Shown: positions 21,477 through 32,114 of the stretch, in pieces
Layout: each line of letters opens with the position of its first letter
How positions within the stretch are numbered: the stretch's first letter is position 1
Virus record (IMG/VR): IMGVR_UViG_3300045988_051605
Span: 1-46,631 of that record
Strand: one strand, 5' to 3'
Source: a virus
DNA length: 46,631 nucleotides
Notes under the pieces: generated by a model
The model's database searches: none
What the model was told of the DNA's origin: nothing
Seen by the model: only the letters and a program-made list of their open reading frames with translations
Position numbers and translations under genes: made by a program

Positions 21477-22499
21477 TCAGTGCTGCGTGACAAGCCTCAC
21501 AATACCGTCAGCGTCCTGCTCAACCGTCATCCGACCGCGGATAAGCTTGCCATCTTCACCAAAGATCGAGCATCCACCATCAAGACGGGTCTGGCACAAG
21601 CCGACAGCCATAGCACCCGTATCAGTCAAGAAGTAATCGTCCCCCTGATACGACAGCCACCCGGTACGCATAGCACCATTAGCTTCCAGGTAATACCACT
21701 TACCCTTGAGCTGAATCCAGCCGGTCTGCATTTCGCCCTTCGAGTTCAGGTAGAACCAGTGTTCGCCATCCTTCACCCAACTGGTCTCCATAGCACCATA
21801 GCGCCCATCATGAACCGGGTGCAGGTAGTACCAGTCACCGTCGATGAACTGCCATCCAACCTGAATCCAGCCCTTCTCATTGGCGTAGTACCACGAACCT
21901 TTGACAGTGAACCAGCCAGTCTCGAAGTTGCCACCGGGCAGCCGATACCACCAGCCACCATCCTGCGACACCCAGCCCTCCTTGTTCAACAGCTCAAGGT
22001 CAAGGTCGTCGTAGTACTGCTGAGCCTTCTCAATGTAGTCGTTCGCATACGTATCACGCAGCGAAGCCGGGCAAGCAGTCGAGTAGAAGTCACTATGGGG
22101 GAAGACGTTCACTCGCCACTGCGGACGGCCCAAGCCGTAACCTCGACACAAGGCAGCAGTGAGGTGCGCACCAGCATCCAGCGTCTCCTCACTAATGTTC
22201 CACCCGCCATCAGCTCCTGTGGAGTTCGCGTGCTCAATACCGATCGACTTCTTGTTCACGCCCGGGCAATGCCACGCCGTGTCGGAGTCATGGACATACT
22301 GGCAAATATTACCATCAACGTCCACATCATAATGCGCACTCGTACCATTCGAGCTGAACGCACCATACACGCCACTAAAGCTCATCGCCTTACCAGCGTT
22401 ATGGTGGACAATAACACGATCAAGAGCGTTACCTCCACGCCCTTCATCGAAGTTGTCAATCCACATATTCGTGTCGGCAACGAGGTCTTGCCAATTCAT
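21477..22499 (-). CDS. Endolysin: N-acetylmuramoyl-L-alanine amidase (Amidase_2/PGRP type) plus C-terminal cell-wall-binding repeats, 340 aa
   Basis: VIVHHNAG...SIGIEH...STACPA amidase motifs. At least six GW..G.WYY-type repeats (choline-binding/CW_binding_1 style). ATGA overlap with the upstream stop at 22496..22499. Confidence 0.85.
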   Translation of the reverse strand: MNWQDLVADTNMWIDNFDEGRGGNALDRVIVHHNAGKAMSFSGVYGAFSSNGTSAHYDVDVDGNICQYVHDSDTAWHCPGVNKKSIGIEHANSTGADGGWNISEETLDAGAHLTAALCRGYGLGRPQWRVNVFPHSDFYSTACPASLRDTYANDYIEKAQQYYDDLDLELLNKEGWVSQDGGWWYRLPGGNFETGWFTVKGSWYYANEKGWIQVGWQFIDGDWYYLHPVHDGRYGAMETSWVKDGEHWFYLNSKGEMQTGWIQLKGKWYYLEANGAMRTGWLSYQGDDYFLTDTGAMAVGLCQTRLDGGCSIFGEDGKLIRGRMTVEQDADGIVRLVTQH

Positions 22500-22780
22500 C
22501 TCTTCAACTCCCAATGTCCGAAGTCTCTCAGTTCCGTTTCAATCATATCAGCAAAGAACTTCTCCCCTTCCGGGGTCACATATGTCTGCCAATGATAACT
22601 AGGCCGCTTACCACCCCGAGTAATAGCCCGACGCACACCAAGCAGACCCTCAGCCTTCTGTGTTGGCACATTAATACCTCCACGGCGCTTCAGATAACCC
22701 TCACGAGCCAGCAGCCTAATGACCTTAAAAGCCCCGATACTACCAATGCTCTTAGCAAACTCAAGCAGACTAGGCTCCAT
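22496..22780 (-). CDS. Small basic protein, possibly a winged-helix DNA binder, 94 aa
   Basis: ORF track; ATG 22780 overlaps the upstream TGA (TGATG). Confidence 0.55.
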   Translation of the reverse strand: MEPSLLEFAKSIGSIGAFKVIRLLAREGYLKRRGGINVPTQKAEGLLGVRRAITRGGKRPSYHWQTYVTPEGEKFFADMIETELRDFGHWELKR

Positions 22781-24007: not shown

Positions 24008-24406
24008 TCAGGCCGTCTTATCAACCAGCGCCCACGAGAGGGCTTTGTCGAGGGCTTCCTCACTGCTATGGCCACTTGCGTTCCAGAGGATAGCGTCGAG
24101 GGCAGTGCCCCAAGGGTCAGTTTCATTCGCCTCTAGGCTATGCAGTCGTGCCTCCTGCGCAAGCTCATCCAGCTCCTTGAACTCTGCGTCGTGCAGCCAG
24201 TAAGCGAACAGTGGCACATTCACGTTGTACTTGACGTTGTGATGCCCCCAATCAGACTCCCAGCCGCTAATGTCATGCACACCGCCGTTACTGTCGGTGA
24301 ACTGGAACTCTGGATGATCGAGGAGACCTGTGTACATACACATGTCACACGAGCCGTCAGTGTCCATGTACGTGTTGTCGTTGTAGTCGGTCAGTCGAAG
24401 TTTCAT
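24008..24406 (-). CDS. Hypothetical acidic protein, 132 aa
   Basis: Start MKLRLTDY with RBS gaaaggagaaacaac then ATG at 24406. The longer ORF-track start would read through the tRNA. Confidence 0.7.
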   Translation of the reverse strand: MKLRLTDYNDNTYMDTDGSCDMCMYTGLLDHPEFQFTDSNGGVHDISGWESDWGHHNVKYNVNVPLFAYWLHDAEFKELDELAQEARLHSLEANETDPWGTALDAILWNASGHSSEEALDKALSWALVDKTA

Positions 24407-24428
24407 GTTGTTTCTCCTTTCATTGTGG

Positions 24429-24514
24429 TGGTCCCCTTGATGAGAGTCGAACTCATACTCCTTACTGGAACCCGGGTTTGAGCCGAGCGCGTCTTCCTGT
24501 TCCGCCACAAGGGG
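24429..24514 (-). tRNA. tRNA-Leu: tRNA-Leu (anticodon CAA), 86 nt, type II with long variable arm, CCA encoded
   Basis: Hand fold: acceptor ccccttg/caagggg. D arm tggcggaacaggaagacgcg is close to E. coli tRNA-Leu. Anticodon stem ctcgg/ccggg with loop ctCAAac. 14-nt variable arm. T arm atgag-ttcgact-ctcat. Discriminator A plus CCA. Confidence 0.85.
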
Positions 24515-27316: not shown

Positions 27317-27380
27317 CATAGAAAGGTGGGTATGCCTGGAGAAATATACGGAGGGGTAGCTCCATAGAAAGGTGGGTATG
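27317..27380. repeat. Two perfect 18-nt direct repeats catagaaaggtgggtatg (27317..27334 and 27363..27380)
   Basis: Read directly; 46-bp periodicity, between the two leftward promoter candidates. Confidence 0.9.
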
Positions 27381-27432: not shown

Positions 27433-27604
27433 GTCGAGGGCCCCCCAACCCTCTCCTATGCTGCACTACCACATTTTCCCTGCCTTGTCAAATTATGTGC
27501 CCCCGGTCAAATGTGTAAAGACAATCCTGTCACTCTGACAACCCACACCCCCTCCAACTCGCGTGACGTGCGTCATATGATCCCAGTCACAAGTCAACTC
27601 CGAG

Positions 27605-27685: not shown

Positions 27686-27784
27686 AAGTAAAGTTGTGTT
27701 TACCTTTGCATCAACTTGCACGAACTGGCATGATCTATTCGTCAGAGTGTCAGGTGAAAAATTCTCGCGAAAACCCCCTTTTTC

Positions 27785-27955
27785 GCTGATTATTCCTAGA
27801 TTTTTTTATTGAAATACAATCAGCAAATTATTACCTACAGAGAATAGTTATAAAACATAGTTGTAATAAGTATGTTCTATATACTAGATGTTCTAAAATA
27901 GATAATATTCTTAATACTATAGATAATATTATTACTAATAAAGAAAGTTATAAGA
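27785..27955. other. AT-rich island (about 20% G+C) with internal short direct repeats; candidate DNA-unwinding element/origin
   Basis: 33 G/C counted in 27801..27960. Repeats atgttcta x2 and tagataatatt x2. No ORF of 60 aa or more on either strand. Confidence 0.7.
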
Positions 27956-28279
27956 TCCGCGTAAAGAAATCATAGAAAAGTAGTGGGTGGTCAGTTTTCG
28001 ACCATCGCAAAAAACGCTCTAAAACGCCCTCTCACGCCTTTTCAGACCCCTACCTAGGCCATGACACTACCCCCACCCTAAAACTCGCTCAGATCGCCTT
28101 CTAGACCCCTTAACGACGGTCCTAGCATTCAACGTCAGCCTCTAACCCTGTTGTCGCCACGCTGTGCATACGCGTATAGCACATCAGCTTTCAAAATGCA
28201 AAACTGTTCCATATTTTGAGATGTCAAATAAAAAGCTATGGTCAAGTCTAAAGTGTTACCTGTTTCACTCTCAAGATCC

Positions 28280-28339: not shown

Positions 28340-28925
28340 CACACGCACATCAGCAAGGCAGCAAGGCACACATCAGCCTAGCGAGGCACACCAGCAAAGC
28401 AAGGGGGCTGTCGAAGCAAAGCAAGCCAAGGCCACGCACGCCCTTAGCAAGGCGCACGTGTACGCCTAGCAAGAGCCGGCTGTGTCGAAGGCGTCAGCAC
28501 TGGAACTAAGCAACATGAGGCCCGGGGGTGTCGAAGGCATACGCATACGGGCGGCATGCTGATAGCCCGCCTAACACGGGTTAGCGAGGCTTCAGGAACC
28601 AGACCAGCTATGAGCCGGGGCTGCCGAAGCGTGAGCACATAAGGGCACAGGGCTGTCGAACACTGAGGGGCTGCCCTTGTGCCCCTGAGCAAGGTAGGCG
28701 GGGCCATATACCGATAGCTGTCGTATACATCAGCAAGCCTGTGCCCCTGTCGTTATAACTAAGGGCCCTCCCTGTCGTCTGCGTATGCGCAGGGCGCACA
28801 CACCTAAGCCCCTTGCTTGTGCGCCCGTGCCTGTGTTGAAGGCTGTGCTGTGCACCTGTCGAAGCCTTGCCCCTGTCGTATGCCCAGCGAGCCACACCCC
28901 TGTCGTATGGCGCTAGCAAGCCCCG
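28340..28925. repeat. Degenerate repeat array: about 12 copies each of (T/C)AGCAAG(G/C) and C(T/C)GTCG(A/T)A motifs, often paired as AGCAAG, 6-10 nt, CCTGTCG
   Basis: Read directly. No plus-strand ORF of 60 aa or more; the minus-strand ORFs here are Arg/Pro/Cys-rich and look spurious. Confidence 0.75.
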
Positions 28926-28958: not shown

Positions 28959-28988
28959 TTGACACTCTGACAGACGCTGCGCTAAGCT
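28959..28988 (+). promoter_or_regulatory. Early rightward promoter P1 (TTGACA, 18 nt, TAAGCT) with tandem TGACA-ctc-TGACA
   Basis: -35 at 28959..28964 and -10 at 28983..28988. Confidence 0.6.
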
Positions 28989-29046: not shown

Positions 29047-29074
29047 TTGACCCGAACGATCTTGACTGTAAACT
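29047..29074 (+). promoter_or_regulatory. Internal promoter-like element (TTGACC, 16 nt, TAAACT)
   Basis: Read directly; same -10 hexamer as the 28280 element. Confidence 0.35.
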
Positions 29075-29188
29075 AAATGACGTGGAAGGCGTGGCTTGCA
29101 CCACGCGGCGGGGTTGGCACCCCTGCCACAACTTCCACAGGCCAGATGCTAGCGCACAGGGTAGCCGCCCACCGCGCTGCATACTTCA

Positions 29189-29244
29189 GAGCCGCGCCCC
29201 CTCACAGAGGCAGGTGAAGGCAGGTTCGATTCCTGCCCGGCTCA
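29189..29244 (+). ncRNA. tRNA-like minihelix E1 (acceptor stem plus canonical T arm, no D or anticodon arm)
   Basis: Acceptor gagccg(c) 29189..29195 pairs with (c)cggctc 29237..29243 (6 bp plus one C-C mismatch). T arm gcagg-ttcgatt-cctgc at 29220..29236. Discriminator A, then CGA. Confidence 0.55.
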
Positions 29245-29273
29245 CGATGTGACACACATCACGAAGCTTCCAG

Positions 29274-29303
29274 TTGACAGAGTGACAGCCTACGCGATAG
29301 GCT
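29274..29303 (+). promoter_or_regulatory. Early rightward promoter P2 (TTGACA, 18 nt, TAGGCT) with tandem TGACA-gag-TGACA
   Basis: -35 at 29274..29279 and -10 at 29298..29303, 40 nt upstream of the first rightward start. Confidence 0.6.
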
Positions 29304-29343
29304 GTAGCCACAAGGTCAAACACCGCACCGAAAGGTAACCCCA

Positions 29344-29565
29344 ATGACACACCTCATCACCCTCACCGACGAGTACACCCGCGTACCCCAGCTCACCCGC
29401 ATCGCCGGCGACTACGACCGCTACAAGGAATGGTTCGCCCTCGTACCCGGCTTCAACGCCTACGACGCAGCCAAGTGGGCACAGCGCGTTTGCCGAGGCC
29501 TCCACGGCGACCGACAGGCACTGAGCCAGCTCGACGCAGCAGGATTCAGCCTCACCATCTACTGA
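29344..29565 (+). CDS. Hypothetical protein, 73 aa; first gene of the rightward arm
   Basis: ORF track; accgaaaggtaacccca then ATG. Confidence 0.65.
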   Translation: MTHLITLTDEYTRVPQLTRIAGDYDRYKEWFALVPGFNAYDAAKWAQRVCRGLHGDRQALSQLDAAGFSLTIY

Positions 29566-29576
29566 CCACCAACCAA

Positions 29577-29614
29577 CGCCCGGCCCTGATCACAACCCCA
29601 CGCGGGGCCGGGCG
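29577..29614 (+). other. GC-rich stem-loop between the first two rightward genes
   Basis: 10-bp stem cgcccggccc / gggccgggcg with an 18-nt loop and no U-tract. Confidence 0.45.
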
Positions 29615-29632
29615 CCCCAAAGGAAACCAACA

Positions 29633-30106
29633 ATGAACATTGCCGCCCTAGCAGCCATAGCCCTACTCGCCACAGCACCCGTCAATGTCGCCGCAACCGA
29701 AACCAACAACGACGGACTCACAGTCGAATACGTCCCCCTTGACCAGGTGCCCGACTGGTATACGACCAAGCCCTACATGCACACCGGGGTATGCATGATC
29801 ACTGAGCAAGACATCACCTGCGCCACCGACACACAGTGGAAACGCGTCACCCTCCACGACAGGTACACGCGAGCACTGTACAAGTTCATCCAACCCACCC
29901 CTCGAAAGGAAACAACAATGAACCAGCTGGCCACCATCGCCGACGTGTACGACGAAATCCGCAACGCAATAGGCGAGAACGCCGACGACTTCAACATTGA
30001 AGGCATCGCCAAGGCCGCCTACATCTTCAACCCTACCACGAGGGCTTTCGAACCCTCCCCCGAGGTCACGTTCTGGGCAGCTGTCGAAGCCAACCACCAG
30101 AACTAG
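29633..30106 (+). CDS. Secreted hypothetical protein, 157 aa, with an in-frame internal start candidate at 29918
   Basis: Signal-peptide-like MNIAALAAIALLATAPVNVAA. RBS aaaggaaaccaaca then ATG. Confidence 0.65.
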   Translation: MNIAALAAIALLATAPVNVAATETNNDGLTVEYVPLDQVPDWYTTKPYMHTGVCMITEQDITCATDTQWKRVTLHDRYTRALYKFIQPTPRKETTMNQLATIADVYDEIRNAIGENADDFNIEGIAKAAYIFNPTTRAFEPSPEVTFWAAVEANHQN

Positions 30107-30119
30107 CTCCAACAGAGCA

Positions 30120-30167
30120 TCCCCGCATCAATGGCGACAAAGCCGGGTTCAATCCCCGGGCGGGGAA
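30120..30167 (+). ncRNA. tRNA-like minihelix E2 (7-bp acceptor stem plus canonical T arm, 16-nt linker)
   Basis: tccccgc 30120..30126 pairs with gcgggga 30160..30166. T arm ccggg-ttcaatc-cccgg at 30143..30159. Discriminator A, then CGA. Confidence 0.6.
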
Positions 30168-30220
30168 CGAAGCACCCTCAACAGGTGAGGGCGCTCAACC
30201 CAATACCGAAAGGTAGAATC

Positions 30221-30478
30221 ATGTCGAAGACCTACAAGACCGATCCCTGGGACGTGAAGGAAGCGCGTGGTGTCGAGTGGCACCCCCGTGAGTTCCGCAG
30301 GGAGCACTCTCTGTACACCCGTCACACCCGGGCCCTGAGCAAGCGCATCCGTGCTCGCGAGCGCCGGGAGATGGAGCGGATTACCCATGACCTTGAAGCG
30401 TGGGAGTCCTACTACCCGACCGGGGCAACGCTCCGTGAGTTCGAGACCGCTACGAACAAGGATGGGTGGCAGTACTGA
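30221..30478 (+). CDS. Hypothetical basic protein, 85 aa
   Basis: Start MSKTYKTD preceded by accgaaaggtagaatc. The longer ORF-track start would read through E2. Confidence 0.65.
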   Translation: MSKTYKTDPWDVKEARGVEWHPREFRREHSLYTRHTRALSKRIRARERREMERITHDLEAWESYYPTGATLREFETATNKDGWQY

Positions 30479-30801
30479 TGGCAACCATCAAGGCAACGCT
30501 CCAGAACCTGAAAAACAACGGTTGGGGCTACTACCCCTGCCTTGTCGGCGGAAAGCTTCACATCAACAGGGACAGGAACTTGTACATGCTCGTGCGCAAT
30601 GACACCCACGAGATTGTGTGCCAGTGGAATAAGCACACGGGCGTCGTGTGGGTTCTCGGGGAACTCGCTTGGCACGAGAAGAGCGCCATTAACCAGATCA
30701 TCGAGGTATGGCGGCCCTGGTACCAGGTTGACTGGGAGACCTGGGAGGTCACACACCACCGGGCATACAAGACCCTACTCCCCCTGAAGCAGTTAGCCTA
30801 G
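30478..30801 (+). CDS. Hypothetical Trp-rich protein, 107 aa
   Basis: ATG 30478 overlaps the upstream TGA (TGATG). Confidence 0.6.
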   Translation: MATIKATLQNLKNNGWGYYPCLVGGKLHINRDRNLYMLVRNDTHEIVCQWNKHTGVVWVLGELAWHEKSAINQIIEVWRPWYQVDWETWEVTHHRAYKTLLPLKQLA

Positions 30802-30817
30802 ACACAATCACTAGGCA

Positions 30818-30866
30818 TCCCGGCCCTGATGGTAGGCGCGTGAGGGTTCGACTCCCTCGCCGGGAA
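30818..30866 (+). ncRNA. tRNA-like minihelix E3 (7-bp acceptor stem plus canonical T arm, 17-nt linker)
   Basis: tcccggc 30818..30824 pairs with gccggga 30859..30865. T arm gaggg-ttcgact-ccctc at 30842..30858. Discriminator A, then CGA. Confidence 0.6.
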
Positions 30867-30902
30867 CGACAGAAACAAAACCGAGACCGAAAGGTAAAAA
30901 TC

Positions 30903-31382
30903 ATGCTGTCACGCAAATGCGCAGAATGGATCATTGGACCCGAACTGACACCCGAACTCGCAGCCACCATCGTGGATGGCGGGCTGCAAGGTAGCGACAT
31001 CTGGGATGACGTGTGCACGTTCGCAGGTGGCTGGTGCAATGACACCAATGTTTTCCTTACGTGGGACGCTATGGGTCGCCCCGACGAAAGCGAGTACATG
31101 GAGCCCGATTACGATATGGAACGGGACCCCGAGCGTCGCCGTGCCATTGTCGCTAACGCCCGCATCTCAGCTATGTCACAGCTCGTTGCAGACGAATTGA
31201 TCAGCGTCGTGGAAGAGATCCTGGTTCGTGATGGCTGGACCATTCGCCCCGCGTCTGAGGTGGAAGCTGAAACGGACCCTCACGGTGTCGGCTGGGTTGA
31301 GGATGGGTGCGACGCCCTTGGCTTCGCAGGTGAGGGCTACCTGTTCGCGCCTCACAAGGATTCGTCTTCCTCGGTATACTGA
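30903..31382 (+). CDS. Hypothetical acidic protein, 159 aa
   Basis: Start MLSRKCAEW preceded by accgaaaggtaaaaatc. Confidence 0.65.
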   Translation: MLSRKCAEWIIGPELTPELAATIVDGGLQGSDIWDDVCTFAGGWCNDTNVFLTWDAMGRPDESEYMEPDYDMERDPERRRAIVANARISAMSQLVADELISVVEEILVRDGWTIRPASEVEAETDPHGVGWVEDGCDALGFAGEGYLFAPHKDSSSSVY

Positions 31383-31791: not shown

Positions 31792-32114
31792 AAGGAACAA
31801 TGATGTACGGAAAGATTGACCCTGAACTGCTTGTCGATTGGGAGCTGCGAAAGTCGTATAGCTCTGAAGAGCTTGGGATTGAACCAGACTTGTGGGATTA
31901 CGTCAAGAAGGATGGTTCCCTCATGACTCTCGAAAGCCTTGAGGATGCTTGCACGCGCGTGTTCGACAATGCGAATAAGGCTAGTCTCATCTTTGGGAAG
32001 GTCTACACTGCAAGTGAGATCGCACGCGAAGTCGCGTGGGATGATTGGAACGACTATGTGAGGGATTCGTTGTCTGCTATGTGTGTCGAAGGCATTATCC
32101 GTCGGATTAACTGA
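31788..32114 (+). CDS. Hypothetical protein, 108 aa
   Basis: ATGA start/stop overlap at 31788..31791. Confidence 0.65.
   Translation: MKGTMMYGKIDPELLVDWELRKSYSSEELGIEPDLWDYVKKDGSLMTLESLEDACTRVFDNANKASLIFGKVYTASEIAREVAWDDWNDYVRDSLSAMCVEGIIRRIN

What the first reader, a model, noticed from the sequence alone, without database searches (positions are those of the whole stretch)
29189..30905. Three tRNA-like acceptor/T-arm minihelices, each upstream of a conserved ACCGAAAGGTA box, punctuate the first early-right genes
Three intergenic elements fold into the top half of a tRNA only.

| Element | Span | Acceptor stem | T arm | Linker |
|---|---|---|---|---|
| E1 | 29189..29244 | 6 bp plus one mismatch | gcagg-TTCGATT-cctgc | 24 nt |
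| E2 | 30120..30167 | 7 bp | ccggg-TTCAATC-cccgg | 16 nt |
| E3 | 30818..30866 | 7 bp | gaggg-TTCGACT-ccctc | 17 nt |

- Each T arm has 5 bp, a G53-C61-type closing pair and a canonical T-loop with A58. It is stacked directly on the acceptor stem.
- Each element is followed by discriminator A and the same trinucleotide CGA instead of CCA.
- The linker replaces the D and anticodon arms, so none of them can decode.
- E2 and E3 are paralogous beyond the fold (gcatcccNgc...ATGG...gggaacga).
- Each element lies 20-85 nt upstream of an identical 11-nt box ACCGAAAGGTA (29327, 30205, 30886) and an ATG (29344, 30221, 30903). That is more conservation than a Shine-Dalgarno site needs.

Acceptor/T-arm minihelices are the minimal substrates of RNase P, RNase Z and CCA-adding enzyme. 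A plausible reading is tRNA-punctuation-style processing of the early polycistronic transcript, or recruitment or titration of a tRNA-binding host factor. I know of no described phage system with this repeated cassette.
Basis: partly seen in the sequence, partly recalled or inferred. Interest (0 to 1): 0.8.

Follow-up and report, generated by a model that had tools for sequence, protein, structure and literature searches.

The report
Anticodon-less tRNA mimics in phage early operon
Three short RNA modules shaped like a tRNA without its anticodon arm sit in front of the first early genes of an uncultured human-oral phage; they belong to a conserved, undescribed family that most likely tells host tRNA-processing enzymes where to cut the early transcripts.

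Summary
E1 (29189-29247), E2 (30120-30170) and E3 (30818-30869) each form a 12-bp acceptor/T minihelix with a canonical T loop and the tail A-CGA. Each lies upstream of ACCGAAAGGTA and an ATG. Shuffled windows gave none.

The elements are conserved. A helicase search recovered 55 related IMG/VR phage contigs, and pattern scans added more. I collected 80 distinct E2/E3-type sequences. In these, 98.3% of stem cells pair and 13 of 15 pairs show compensatory changes.

- The "linker" of E2/E3 is a covarying D-like hairpin with a GG loop.
- Most elements are flanked by small hairpins. One ends about 1 nt before +1 and holds the upstream stop codon. The other starts 5-6 nt after the discriminator.
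- E1 is the 3' domain of a conserved structured RNA, and a promoter-like site separates it from gene 1.

ARAGORN and Rfam do not recognise the elements, and I found no paper describing them.

Best reading (about 0.5): cis-acting tRNA-like processing signals, as in plant-mitochondrial t-elements or mascRNA. Cleavage is inferred, not shown. I rate this a new variant of a known kind, interest about 0.7.

The parts
29189..29247 (+). E1, a type A tRNA-like element. Acceptor 29189-29194 pairs with 29238-29243. A central hairpin fills the linker. T stem 29219-29224 pairs with 29232-29237, T loop 29225-29231, discriminator A29244, tail CGA.
   Evidence: MFE -28.8 kcal/mol, z -3.3; 26.1 bits, E 2.6e-5; 6+6 bp; always 12 nt after the T loop in type A.
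30120..30170 (+). E2, a type B1 element. Acceptor TCCCCGC/GCGGGGA, weak D-like hairpin ATC-AATGGC-GAC, connector AAAG, T arm CCGGG-TTCAATC-CCCGG, then A-CGA.
   Evidence: 67.7 bits. An identical copy occurs in 10 related contigs.
30818..30869 (+). E3, a type B2 body with a B3-type trailer. Acceptor TCCCGGC/GCCGGGA, D-like hairpin CCT-GATGGT-AGG, connector CGCGT, T arm GAGGG-TTCGACT-CCCTC, then A-CGA.
   Evidence: 64.3 bits; hybrid of B2 body and B3 trailer.
29327..29337 (+). Box 1, ACCGAAAGGTA: an extended Shine-Dalgarno box for the gene starting at ATG 29344.
30205..30215 (+). Box 2, ACCGAAAGGTA, for the gene starting at ATG 30221.
30886..30896 (+). Box 3, ACCGAAAGGTA, for the gene starting at ATG 30903.
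30106..30118 (+). Hairpin 5' of E2 (GCUC-CAACA-GAGC). It overlaps the stop codon TAG 30104-30106 and ends 1 nt before position +1 of E2.
30796..30816 (+). Hairpin 5' of E3 (GCCUAG-9 nt-CUAGGC). It contains the stop codon TAG 30799-30801 and ends 1 nt before position +1 of E3.
30171..30195 (+). Hairpin 3' of E2 (AGC-A-CCCUCA-ACAGG-UGAGGG-C-GCU). It starts 4 nt after the discriminator and is followed by a C/A-rich spacer and box 2.
29246..29263 (+). Hairpin 3' of E1 (GAUGUG-ACA-CACAUC; relatives have GUGAC-ACAC-GUCAC).
29082..29182 (+). Conserved structured RNA immediately 5' of E1. A three-way junction (about 29082-29138) carries loops CUUGCA and UUGGCA, followed by a long hairpin (about 29146-29182). 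Both show compensatory changes.
   Evidence: 14 predicted pairs with changes on both sides.
29047..29074 (+). Promoter-like site P2 (TTGACC-16-TAAACT). The structured RNA plus E1 begins just after it.
   Evidence: conserved in 11 relatives.
29274..29303 (+). Promoter-like site P3 (TTGACA-18-TAGGCT), between E1 and gene 1. The hexamers are conserved and the spacer varies among relatives.
   Evidence: A paralogous copy lies at 28959-28988 and an inverted copy at 27527-27542 (I10).
29344..29565 (+). Gene 1, 73 aa, no known family.
30221..30478 (+). Gene downstream of E2, 85 aa, no known family. Its homologues follow B1/B4 elements in 36 of 40 cases.
30903..31382 (+). Gene downstream of E3, 159 aa, no known family. 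Its homologues follow B2/B3 elements.

Best explanation
E1-E3 belong to a conserved family of 47-59-nt tRNA-shaped RNA modules. Each has a 12-bp acceptor/T coaxial helix, a canonical T loop, a short D-like or central hairpin (with a GG loop in E2/E3), a discriminator and C74. None has an anticodon arm. They are transcribed with the early rightward RNAs of a group of uncultured phages, about 50 kb in size, from human oral or gut samples.

The most likely function is as cis-acting processing signals:
1. Host RNase P cuts at the 5' edge of the element.
2. A tRNA 3'-processing nuclease such as RNase Z may cut after the discriminator. The tail is never CCA, which is the RNase Z anti-determinant.
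3. The upstream RNA is then left ending in a small hairpin plus about 1 nt.
4. The downstream mRNA begins either with the base-paired element itself or with CGAU plus a hairpin. A C/A-rich leader, the special box ACCGAAAGGTA and the start codon follow.

The effect would be to uncouple and stabilise individual early messages. For E1, it would release a structured leader RNA.

- **Shown:** the family, its structure, covariation, strand, location and flank architecture.
- **Inferred:** the cleavages, the enzymes, and the effect on stability or translation.
For: **Structure under selection**
- 80 distinct type B sequences: 98.3% of cells paired, 13 of 15 pairs with double changes. Slid controls give 30-62%.
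- Detection without pairing information still gives 94 of 99 copies with perfect stems.

**Features that tRNA-end enzymes measure are the ones kept**
- The minihelix is 12 bp whether split 7+5, 6+6 or 5+7.
- G53-C61, T54, T55, C56 and A58 are invariant, and a GG sits in the D-like loop.
- C74 is invariant in 68 of 68 copies. Position 75 is never C.

**Not coding, and strand-specific**
- Linker length varies between 16 and 19 nt, which breaks any reading frame.
- Structural hits: 173 on the gene strand versus 29 on the other.

**Flanks**
- 5' hairpin: present in 74% versus 14% of shuffles, usually 1 nt before +1, and holding the upstream stop codon.
- 3' hairpin: 66% versus 22%, starting at +5 or +6.
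- The same layout occurs in other phage groups with different hairpin sequences.

**tRNA-shaped modules are interchangeable at such junctions**
- The phage's real tRNA-Leu sits 12 nt before an SD and ATG.
- L061 has a four-arm pseudo-tRNA without U33 in the same hairpin-module-SD layout.

**Precedents**
- Plant-mitochondrial t-elements with the same GGTTCRANYCC motif mark mRNA ends made by RNase P and RNase Z (PMC1920247).
- In the actinobacterium M. smegmatis, a tRNA-like module with a 7-bp acceptor stem inside YrlA is cut by RNase P and receives CCA in vivo (PMC4201824).
Against: - No RNA 5' or 3' ends, Northern blots or enzyme assays exist for these phages. The host is not identified.
- Acceptor pairs 1-4 (UCCC/GGGA), A73, C74 and the CGA(U) tail are conserved in sequence. 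RNase P and RNase Z are not known to need this, which hints at another, sequence-specific partner.
- A stable hairpin 1 nt upstream of the cut could hinder binding of the RNase P protein to the leader (established knowledge of bacterial RNase P).
- E1 is followed by a promoter-like site, so it does not separate two cistrons.
- The elements are confined to the first ~1.7 kb of the early operon rather than punctuating all of it.
- The window encodes no tRNA-processing enzyme among the proteins scanned.
Confidence: 0.5

Rival explanations
1. The product matters, not the cut. The excised ~50-nt anticodon-less tRNA mimics, possibly CCA-tailed, accumulate early in infection and act in trans. They would serve as decoys or sponges for a host factor that recognises the tRNA acceptor end or elbow. 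Candidates are acceptor-end-modifying defence toxins, tRNA-binding regulators, RNase P itself, or a phage protein.
For: - Sequence conservation goes beyond what processing enzymes need: U1-A72, C2-G71, C3-G70, C4-G69, A73 and an invariant C74.
- There are several copies per genome at the very start of the early operon.
- The elbow features (GG loop, T loop) are kept.
- Distant type A copies end in a genuine ACCA.
- A tRNA-like YrlA module gains CCA in M. smegmatis (PMC4201824).
Against: - No partner was identified.
- The tight coupling to flanking hairpins, the upstream stop codon and the SD box is better explained by a cis role.
- In other phage groups only one or two copies exist.
- Type A has a different acceptor sequence.
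Confidence: 0.15
2. A cis-acting structure that works without cleavage. The tRNA-shaped fold plus hairpins would act as an insulator between cistrons. It could block ribosome read-through or re-initiation and Rho or exonuclease progress, or tune access to the SD held in the small ACC-GAAA-GGU hairpin. This would be analogous to the unexplained SAS/ESAS of Cluster K mycobacteriophages.
For: - The elements always lie 20-85 nt upstream of a special SD box. ACC...T around GAAAGG occurs in 57 of 106 element-linked sites versus 18 of 402 other sites.
- The generic SD of this phage is GAAAGGA.
- The stop codon of the upstream gene lies 5-21 nt before the element.
- SAS/ESAS is a comparable repeated pair of start-associated box and upstream inverted repeat (PMC3203893).
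Against: - A generic insulator would not need a canonical T loop, a GG loop, a discriminator, C74 and an exact 12-bp minihelix.
- The box hairpin has only 3 bp, and the only pair that can be tested covaries weakly.
Confidence: 0.15
3. The elements are mainly recombination linkers. Short conserved repeats at gene-cassette borders would drive modular shuffling of early genes, like the PeSL cassettes of T4-type phages. Any RNA fold would be incidental.
For: - The same element class is flanked by different upstream and downstream gene families.
- Window E3 is a B2 body joined to a B3 trailer at the shared CGACA. The gene that lies between B2 and B3 in relatives is missing.
Against: - Compensatory changes in 13 of 15 pairs and tRNA-specific loop conservation show selection on the RNA fold.
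- Shuffling is better seen as a by-product of repeated sequence.
Confidence: 0.05
4. Relics or DNA-level sites: decayed tRNA genes, attP cores copied from host tRNA 3' ends, operators or an origin.
For: - T-arm plus 3' acceptor sequences are typical of attP cores (established knowledge).
- In relatives, the E1 linker carries a palindrome of the genome-wide motif CTGTCG, which could be an operator.
Against: - Both acceptor strands are present.
- There are three to four copies per genome, all on one strand.
- Conservation with covariation extends across more than 100 contigs.
- Only about 2 of 99 copies are decayed.
- No integrase was seen in the window.
Confidence: 0.03

Closest known systems
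t-elements of plant mitochondria (Forner et al. 2007, PMC1920247)
   Same: Both are non-decoding tRNA-like folds with the GGTTCRANYCC T-arm motif, embedded in mRNA precursors. In plant mitochondria their edges coincide with mRNA 3' ends (RNase P) and 5' ends (RNase Z). The excised element can persist and receive non-templated C/CA.
   Different: t-elements occur in organelles, not phages. They are scattered single copies without a linked SD box or regular flanking hairpins. No homology to them is implied, and processing of the phage elements is untested.
mascRNA-type 3'-end formation (MALAT1/MEN-beta) and the mitochondrial tRNA punctuation model
   Same: A tRNA-shaped module is cut by RNase P and RNase Z to define the ends of neighbouring RNAs. 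A protective structure lies immediately upstream of the RNase P site.
   Different: These are eukaryotic nuclear or mitochondrial systems. mascRNA keeps a cloverleaf with a small anticodon-like arm, and punctuating mitochondrial tRNAs decode. This comparison rests on my own knowledge, not on a paper read here.
Start-associated sequences (SAS) and extended SAS of Cluster K mycobacteriophages (Pope et al. 2011, PMC3203893)
   Same: A conserved box just upstream of start codons of a subset of genes in an actinophage, often preceded by a structured or inverted-repeat element. All copies share one orientation, and the function is unknown.
   Different: The SAS sequence differs (13 bp). ESAS is a 17-bp imperfect inverted repeat, not a tRNA mimic, and there are dozens of copies across the genome. 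No sequence relation to the window.
tRNA-like module of bacterial Y RNA YrlA (Chen et al. 2014, PMC4201824)
   Same: A tRNA mimic with acceptor, D and T features but no decoding role. The M. smegmatis version, with a 7-bp acceptor stem, is cut by RNase P and gets CCA in vivo. Some are phage-encoded.
   Different: YrlA has a Ro60-binding stem in place of the anticodon arm and is encoded next to rsr. There is no Rfam match here and no Ro60 gene among the proteins scanned in the window.
RNase P-processed phage small RNAs (P1/P7 C4, P4 CI, T4 species 1 and 2 RNAs)
   Same: Phage-encoded non-decoding RNAs from immunity or early regions whose ends are made by RNase P through tRNA-like acceptor features. 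E1 together with its upstream structured RNA lies in the equivalent control region.
   Different: Those are single antisense or immunity RNAs of enterobacterial phages with known targets. None is a repeated cassette before genes. This comparison rests on my own knowledge and was not tested here.
tRNA-like domain of tmRNA
   Same: Acceptor plus T arm with a reduced D region and no anticodon arm.
   Different: In tmRNA the two acceptor strands are hundreds of nucleotides apart and enclose a tag ORF and pseudoknots, and a G3-U70 pair is required. None of this is present. ARAGORN finds no tmRNA.

Membership tests
tRNA (Rfam RF00005 / ARAGORN) | Four-arm cloverleaf with an anticodon stem-loop; recognised by tRNA gene finders. 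| tested here: not met
   ARAGORN calls only tRNA-Leu in the window and none of the elements in 40 loci. Rfam at gathering threshold gives only tRNA-Leu. At E<=10, E1 gets 17 bits to tRNA-Sec (E 6.4) and E2/E3 get nothing. Only 16-24 nt lie between the acceptor and T stems.
tRNA (Rfam RF00005 / ARAGORN) | 7-bp acceptor plus 5-bp T stem, a T loop T54-T55-C56-R57-A58 closed by G53-C61, GG in the D loop, and a discriminator. | tested here: met
tmRNA | Tag reading frame and pseudoknots between the acceptor strands; G3-U70. | tested here: not met
   ARAGORN finds no tmRNA. Acceptor pair 3-70 is C-G in type B and G-C in type A.
Y RNA / YrlA | Match to the Rfam Y RNA-like models; a Ro60-binding stem; an adjacent rsr gene. 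| tested here: not met
   No Rfam hit even at E<=10. No Ro60 family among the scanned proteins.
t-element-type processing signal | Non-canonical tRNA-like fold with the GGTTCRANYCC T arm, embedded in an mRNA precursor. | tested here: met
   All three elements match the motif. They are intergenic and on the gene strand.
t-element-type processing signal | The edges of the element coincide with mapped RNA 5'/3' ends; cleavage by RNase P and RNase Z. | not testable with these tools
   No transcript data or enzyme assays are available. Only indirect support exists, from hairpins placed at the predicted ends.
SAS/ESAS of Cluster K mycobacteriophages | The 13-bp SAS consensus 3-8 bp before start codons, and 17-bp imperfect inverted repeats upstream. 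| tested here: not met
   The box here is ACCGAAAGGTA, and the upstream element is a tRNA mimic. No DNA similarity to any GenBank phage. The definition of SAS/ESAS is taken from PMC3203893.
attP core / tRNA gene fragment | A single copy next to an integrase, identical to the 3' part of a host tRNA, with no need for a 5' acceptor strand. | tested here: not met
   Three copies, each with both acceptor strands, covarying among phages. No integrase found in the window. Identity to host tRNAs could not be tested because the host is unknown.
Intrinsic terminator | GC-rich hairpin followed by a U tract. | tested here: not met
   The scan lists no terminator-like site at the elements or their 3' hairpins on the + strand. 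No T run follows them.

The most novel reading that the evidence does not exclude
The elements are cut out by host tRNA-processing enzymes and accumulate as a new class of phage-made, anticodon-less mini-tRNAs. Their invariant acceptor end (U1-A72, C2-G71, C3-G70, C4-G69, A73, C74) would be read by a specific partner. They might act as decoys that soak up host defence enzymes attacking tRNA acceptor ends, or as guides or cofactors for one of the small early proteins encoded right behind them.
Probability: 0.12. Interest if true: 0.9.

Novelty: new variant of a known kind. Interest (0 to 1): 0.7.

Why it matters
- **A new RNA family.** If the elements are processing signals, this would be, to my knowledge, the first repeated tRNA-punctuation or t-element-like system in a bacteriophage. 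It would show that a virus can borrow RNase P and RNase Z to cut its early transcripts into hairpin-capped messages.
- **Ready to test.** The family has more than 80 distinct sequences and strong covariation, so it can be submitted to Rfam. The cleavage predictions are simple and can be checked at single-nucleotide resolution.
- **Practical use.** It could supply compact natural insulator or processing parts for actinobacterial synthetic biology.
- **If the products act in trans.** It would add a new kind of tRNA mimic to phage-host conflict.
- **Annotation.** Gene finders could extend ORFs into these elements, for example from ATG 30131 or GTG 30840.

Tried and rejected
- **GenBank phages.** DNA searches, near and distant, found nothing. 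The terminase is only 34-41% identical to actinophage terminases.
- **Exact search.** The E3 3' half was not found in IMG/VR.
- **Rfam.** At E<=10 it gave only chance-level hits.
- **Genome pattern scan.** Almost all hits were chance, as the distribution of stem pairing shows. Only two phage-sized contigs binned as Actinomyces and Atopobium MAGs were real. The host stays unproven.
- **CRISPR-bearing contig L237.** ORFs beside the array gave no NCBIfam hit, so the array owner was not named.
- **Fourth T-arm motif.** The GGTTCAATCCC at 31875 (-) has no stems and lies inside a gene. It is chance.
- **Coding reading.** Reading E2/E3 as N-terminal extensions from ATG 30131 or GTG 30840 is rejected. 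Linker lengths of 16-19 nt break the frame, and substitutions are pairwise compensatory.
- **MITE or IS reading.** Rejected: there are no terminal repeats, positions are fixed and syntenic, and all copies share one orientation.
- **Aminoacylation identity.** There is no G3-U70 pair. No isotype could be assigned.
- **Phage-encoded tRNA enzymes.** Pfam and PHROGs gave nothing for the three downstream genes, and Pfam scans of further window proteins found no tRNA-processing enzyme.


Full report
**1. The observation**

A structural scan asked for a TTCRANN loop closed by 5 bp, abutting a 7-nt strand that pairs with a strand 4-44 nt upstream. On the + strand it finds exactly E1 (29189-29243, 6 of 7 acceptor pairs), E2 (30120-30166, 7 of 7) and E3 (30818-30865, 7 of 7). 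Each is followed by ACGA.

- With a linker of 14-26 nt and the ACGA tail, the window has 3 such sites. Each of 200 dinucleotide-preserving shuffles has 0.
- ACCGAAAGGTA occurs three times with up to 1 mismatch and nowhere else. None of 100 shuffles reached three.
- All three T arms match GGTTCRANYCC. A fourth match at 31875 (-) has no stems and lies in a gene.
- ARAGORN and Rfam at gathering threshold report only a genuine tRNA-Leu(CAA) at 24429-24514 (-).
- At E<=10, Rfam gives E1 a 17-bit tRNA-Sec-like hit and gives E2 and E3 nothing tRNA-related.

**2. What the window is**

The window is most of a ~50-kb tailed-phage genome.

- The left arm is on the minus strand. It holds the terminase, a 1725-aa tape-measure-sized ORF, an amidase endolysin with choline-binding repeats, and a dUTPase.
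- A 1.9-kb non-coding control region follows.
- The rightward early/replication arm holds an SNF2 helicase, a dCMP deaminase, AAA_24, DUF669 and a family A DNA polymerase.

No GenBank phage matches it at the DNA level. The terminase is 34-41% identical to those of Arthrobacter, Streptomyces and Clavibacter phages. The helicase sequence occurs in human metagenome assemblies, for example ERZ28667304 and run ERR589409. Two phage-sized contigs that carry the elements were binned as Actinomyces and Atopobium MAGs. The host is therefore probably an oral actinobacterium, but this is not proven.

**3. Relatives and covariation**

The helicase recovered 55 IMG/VR loci at 82-94% amino-acid identity. Nearly all carry two to four of the elements in the same place and orientation. 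The structural scan gave 173 hits on the gene strand and 29 on the other.

Type B (the E2/E3 kind):
- 62 distinct sequences align in 54 columns.
- For acceptor 7 bp, D-like 3 bp and T 5 bp, 98.7% of cells pair and 12 of 15 pairs show changes on both sides. Partners slid by 1-3 columns pair in only 30-62%.
- To remove ascertainment bias by pairing, I searched with a sequence-only HMM. Of 99 hits on the + strand, 94 have perfect 7+5 bp and two are decayed. One of these is L001 5861-5906, which lost its 5' acceptor strand.
- A covariance model found 121 copies in 72 sources. These give 80 distinct sequences, 98.3% paired, and 13 of 15 pairs with compensatory changes. The D-like stem is 95.8% paired and all three of its pairs covary.
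- Pattern scans added further phage groups and 31 new variants from human-associated metagenomes.

**4. Refined anatomy**

Type B reads as follows:
- U1-C2-C3-C4 plus three variable pairs.
- Directly after these, a 3-4 bp hairpin whose 6-nt loop carries GG (for example CCU-AAUGGU-AGG, and CAU-GAUGGU-AUG as a compensated variant).
- A 4-7 nt connector such as UAAAU or CAAAG.
- A 5-bp T stem closed by G-C, then T loop UUCRANN.
- The acceptor 3' strand, A73 (G in B3), C74, a non-C base, then a purine.

Invariant positions:
- G53, T54, T55, C56, A58 and C74 are invariant in the 62-sequence alignment, and C61 is nearly so. Its pair G53-C61 is G-C in 79 of 80 distinct sequences.
- C74 is invariant in 68 of 68 distinct copies with flanks, and position 75 is G 53, T 13, A 2 and never C.

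So these are tRNAs without the anticodon arm, not bare acceptor/T minihelices.

E1 belongs to a second class, type A. It has acceptor GAGCCG/CGGCUC, a central hairpin and T arm GGCAGG-UUCGAUU-CCUGCC. It folds as 6+6 bp. Across type A the split is 5+7, 6+6 or 7+5, but there are always 12 nt between the T loop and the discriminator. Distant type A copies end in ACCA rather than ACGA and show different T stems. Keeping a 12-bp ruler while the partition changes is what tRNA-end enzymes measure. This last point rests on established knowledge of RNase P, RNase Z and CCA-adding enzyme.

**5. Context**

The elements are intergenic and non-coding. The linker length of 16-19 nt is not a multiple of three. 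The stop codon of the upstream gene lies 5-21 nt before the element.

| Flank | Hairpin of -4 kcal/mol or better | In shuffles | Usual position |
|---|---|---|---|
| 5' | 74% of distinct flanks | 14% | ends 1 nt before +1, contains the stop codon |
| 3' | 66% of distinct flanks | 22% | first pair at +5 or +6, after CGAU |

- The hairpin sequences differ between lineages while their position is kept. Examples are GCUAACC/GGUUAGC, GCUGAC/GUCAGC, AGCUCA/UGAGCU and GCGAC/GUCGC.
- In the window, E2 has GCUC-CAACA-GAGC at 30106-30118 and a hairpin at 30171-30195. E3 has GCCUAG...CUAGGC at 30796-30816 and no 3' hairpin. E1 has a hairpin at 29246-29260.
- Downstream come a C/A-rich spacer and the box.
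- The generic SD of this phage is GAAAGGA. Element-linked starts have ACC-GAAAGG-T in 57 of 106 distinct sites, against 18 of 402 other GAAAGG sites in the same genomes.
- ACC-GAAA-GGU can form a 3-bp GNRA hairpin. The evidence for this is weak.

**6. E1 is a special case**

Alignment of 11 relatives shows three conserved promoter-like sites:
- TTGACA-18-TAAGCT at 28959-28988.
- TTGACC-16-TAAACT at 29047-29074.
- TTGACA-18-TAGGCT at 29274-29303, which lies between E1 and gene 1.

From about 29082, just after the second site, a conserved structure runs up to E1. It is a three-way junction with loops CUUGCA and UUGGCA, then a long hairpin, with 14 predicted pairs changed on both sides. E1 is thus the 3' domain of a ~165-nt structured leader RNA. 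A cut at G29189 would release that RNA, in the manner of mascRNA. In some distant relatives the type A element is followed directly by an SD and ATG with no promoter-like site.

**7. Mosaicism**

The same element class joins different upstream and downstream gene families. Window E3 has a B2 body, but its trailer is identical to the B3 trailer of L001. The gene that lies between B2 and B3 in relatives is absent. The repeats therefore also serve as recombination points. The covariation shows that this is not their primary constraint.

**8. Mechanism**

The most economical explanation is tRNA-like processing signals. RNase P would cut at +1. RNase Z or another 3' nuclease might cut after the discriminator, and the tail is never the RNase Z anti-determinant CCA.

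- Upstream RNAs would end in a hairpin.
- Downstream mRNAs would start either with the base-paired element or with CGAU plus a hairpin.
- Real or pseudo tRNAs occupy equivalent positions. tRNA-Leu lies 12 nt before an SD. L061 has a four-arm pseudo-tRNA lacking U33, and also a CCCCGGG-acceptor element, both in the same hairpin-module-SD layout.
- Precedents are plant-mitochondrial t-elements (PMC1920247) and the RNase P-cut, CCA-tailed tRNA-like module of M. smegmatis YrlA (PMC4201824).

Points against:
- No RNA-end data exist.
- The acceptor end is conserved in sequence for no known reason.
- A hairpin sits very close to the RNase P site.
- The elements are restricted to the first ~1.7 kb of the operon.

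I put this reading at about 0.5. The rivals are a trans-acting mini-tRNA decoy (0.15), an uncleaved cis insulator or translation element comparable to SAS/ESAS (PMC3203893) (0.15), recombination linkers only (0.05), and relics or DNA sites (0.03).

**9. Novelty**

Four literature searches found no description of such a cassette in phages. Rfam has no model for it. The kind of element, a tRNA-like processing or mimicry module, is known. What appears new is this family, its anticodon-less D+T architecture, its coupling to a start-associated box and flanking hairpins, and its setting in a phage early operon.

Noticed in passing
window 29082-29182 (+): A conserved structured non-coding RNA runs between a promoter-like site and E1. 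It is a three-way junction with two hairpin loops, CUUGCA and UUGGCA, followed by a long hairpin. Both show compensatory changes among 14 relatives. There is no Rfam match.
   Followed up: partly
window 28959-28988, 29047-29074, 29274-29303 (+); 27527-27542 (-): Three tandem rightward promoter-like sites lie within 350 nt. Two are paralogous (GTTGACAnnnTGACA...TARGCT), with an inverted copy facing left. Hexamers are conserved and spacers vary among relatives.
   Followed up: partly
whole window; cluster at 28400-28910: CTGTCG and TGTCGA are the commonest hexamers: 147-149 copies counting both strands, where about 23 are expected. That is 3.15 per kb, against 0.64 per kb in unrelated loci, and relatives share the excess. 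CTGTCGWW occurs 62 times versus 7 expected, with a mild bias toward the transcribed strand. Copies cluster in the non-coding region upstream of E1. A palindromic pair (CTGTCGTT-CGC-AACGACAG) forms the E1-type linker hairpin in relatives. The E3/B3 tail CGACAG is its reverse complement. It could be a protein-binding or Chi-like motif.
   Followed up: partly
L237 5863-5895; L318 761-793 and 822-854: Two type I-E-like CRISPR arrays (28-nt repeat GTTTTCCCCGC(CCAC/GTGA)GCGGGGATGAGCC, period 61) in human metagenome contigs carry spacers identical to the T arm, 3' acceptor and tail of B1- and B2-type elements. The neighbouring spacer in L318 matches window 28085-28109. The conserved elements are therefore CRISPR targets, and the array owner is a candidate host.
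   Followed up: partly
window 24404-24514 (-): The genuine tRNA-Leu(CAA) encodes its CCA and lies 12 nt upstream of GAAAGGAG and an ATG. A real tRNA thus sits in the same tRNA-SD-start layout as the mimics.
   Followed up: partly
L061 4032-4103 (-) and 6665-6722 (-): A different phage group has a four-arm tRNA-Pro-like gene with G instead of U33, which is probably non-decoding. It also has a variant element with acceptor CCCCGGG and tail ACCG. Both are preceded by a stop-codon hairpin and followed by an SD and ATG.
   Followed up: partly
window 29633-30106 (+): This 157-aa ORF contains an in-frame internal start at 29918. It is preceded by a near-copy of the 24-nt SD region of its own start (CGCCCCAAAGGAAACCAACAATGA versus CCCCTCGAAAGGAAACAACAATGA). 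Nested products or a fused gene pair are possible.
   Followed up: no
window 27780-27960: A sharply AT-rich island lies in the middle of the divergent control region of a 53% GC genome. Just before it, at 27767-27786, is a hairpin with T runs on both strands, resembling a bidirectional terminator.
   Followed up: no
window 27317-27334 and 27363-27380 (+): Two direct copies of ATAGAAAGGTGGGTATG, 46 nt apart, lie just upstream of the first leftward gene. They could be operators or tiny ORF starts.
   Followed up: no
L001 5861-5906: This is a decayed B1 copy that has lost its 5' acceptor strand but keeps the rest. It is a natural knock-out that could be compared with intact relatives.
   Followed up: no
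window 21477-22514 (-): The endolysin combines an Amidase_2 domain with choline-binding (CW_binding_1) repeats. This may hint at the host's cell-wall type.
   Followed up: no
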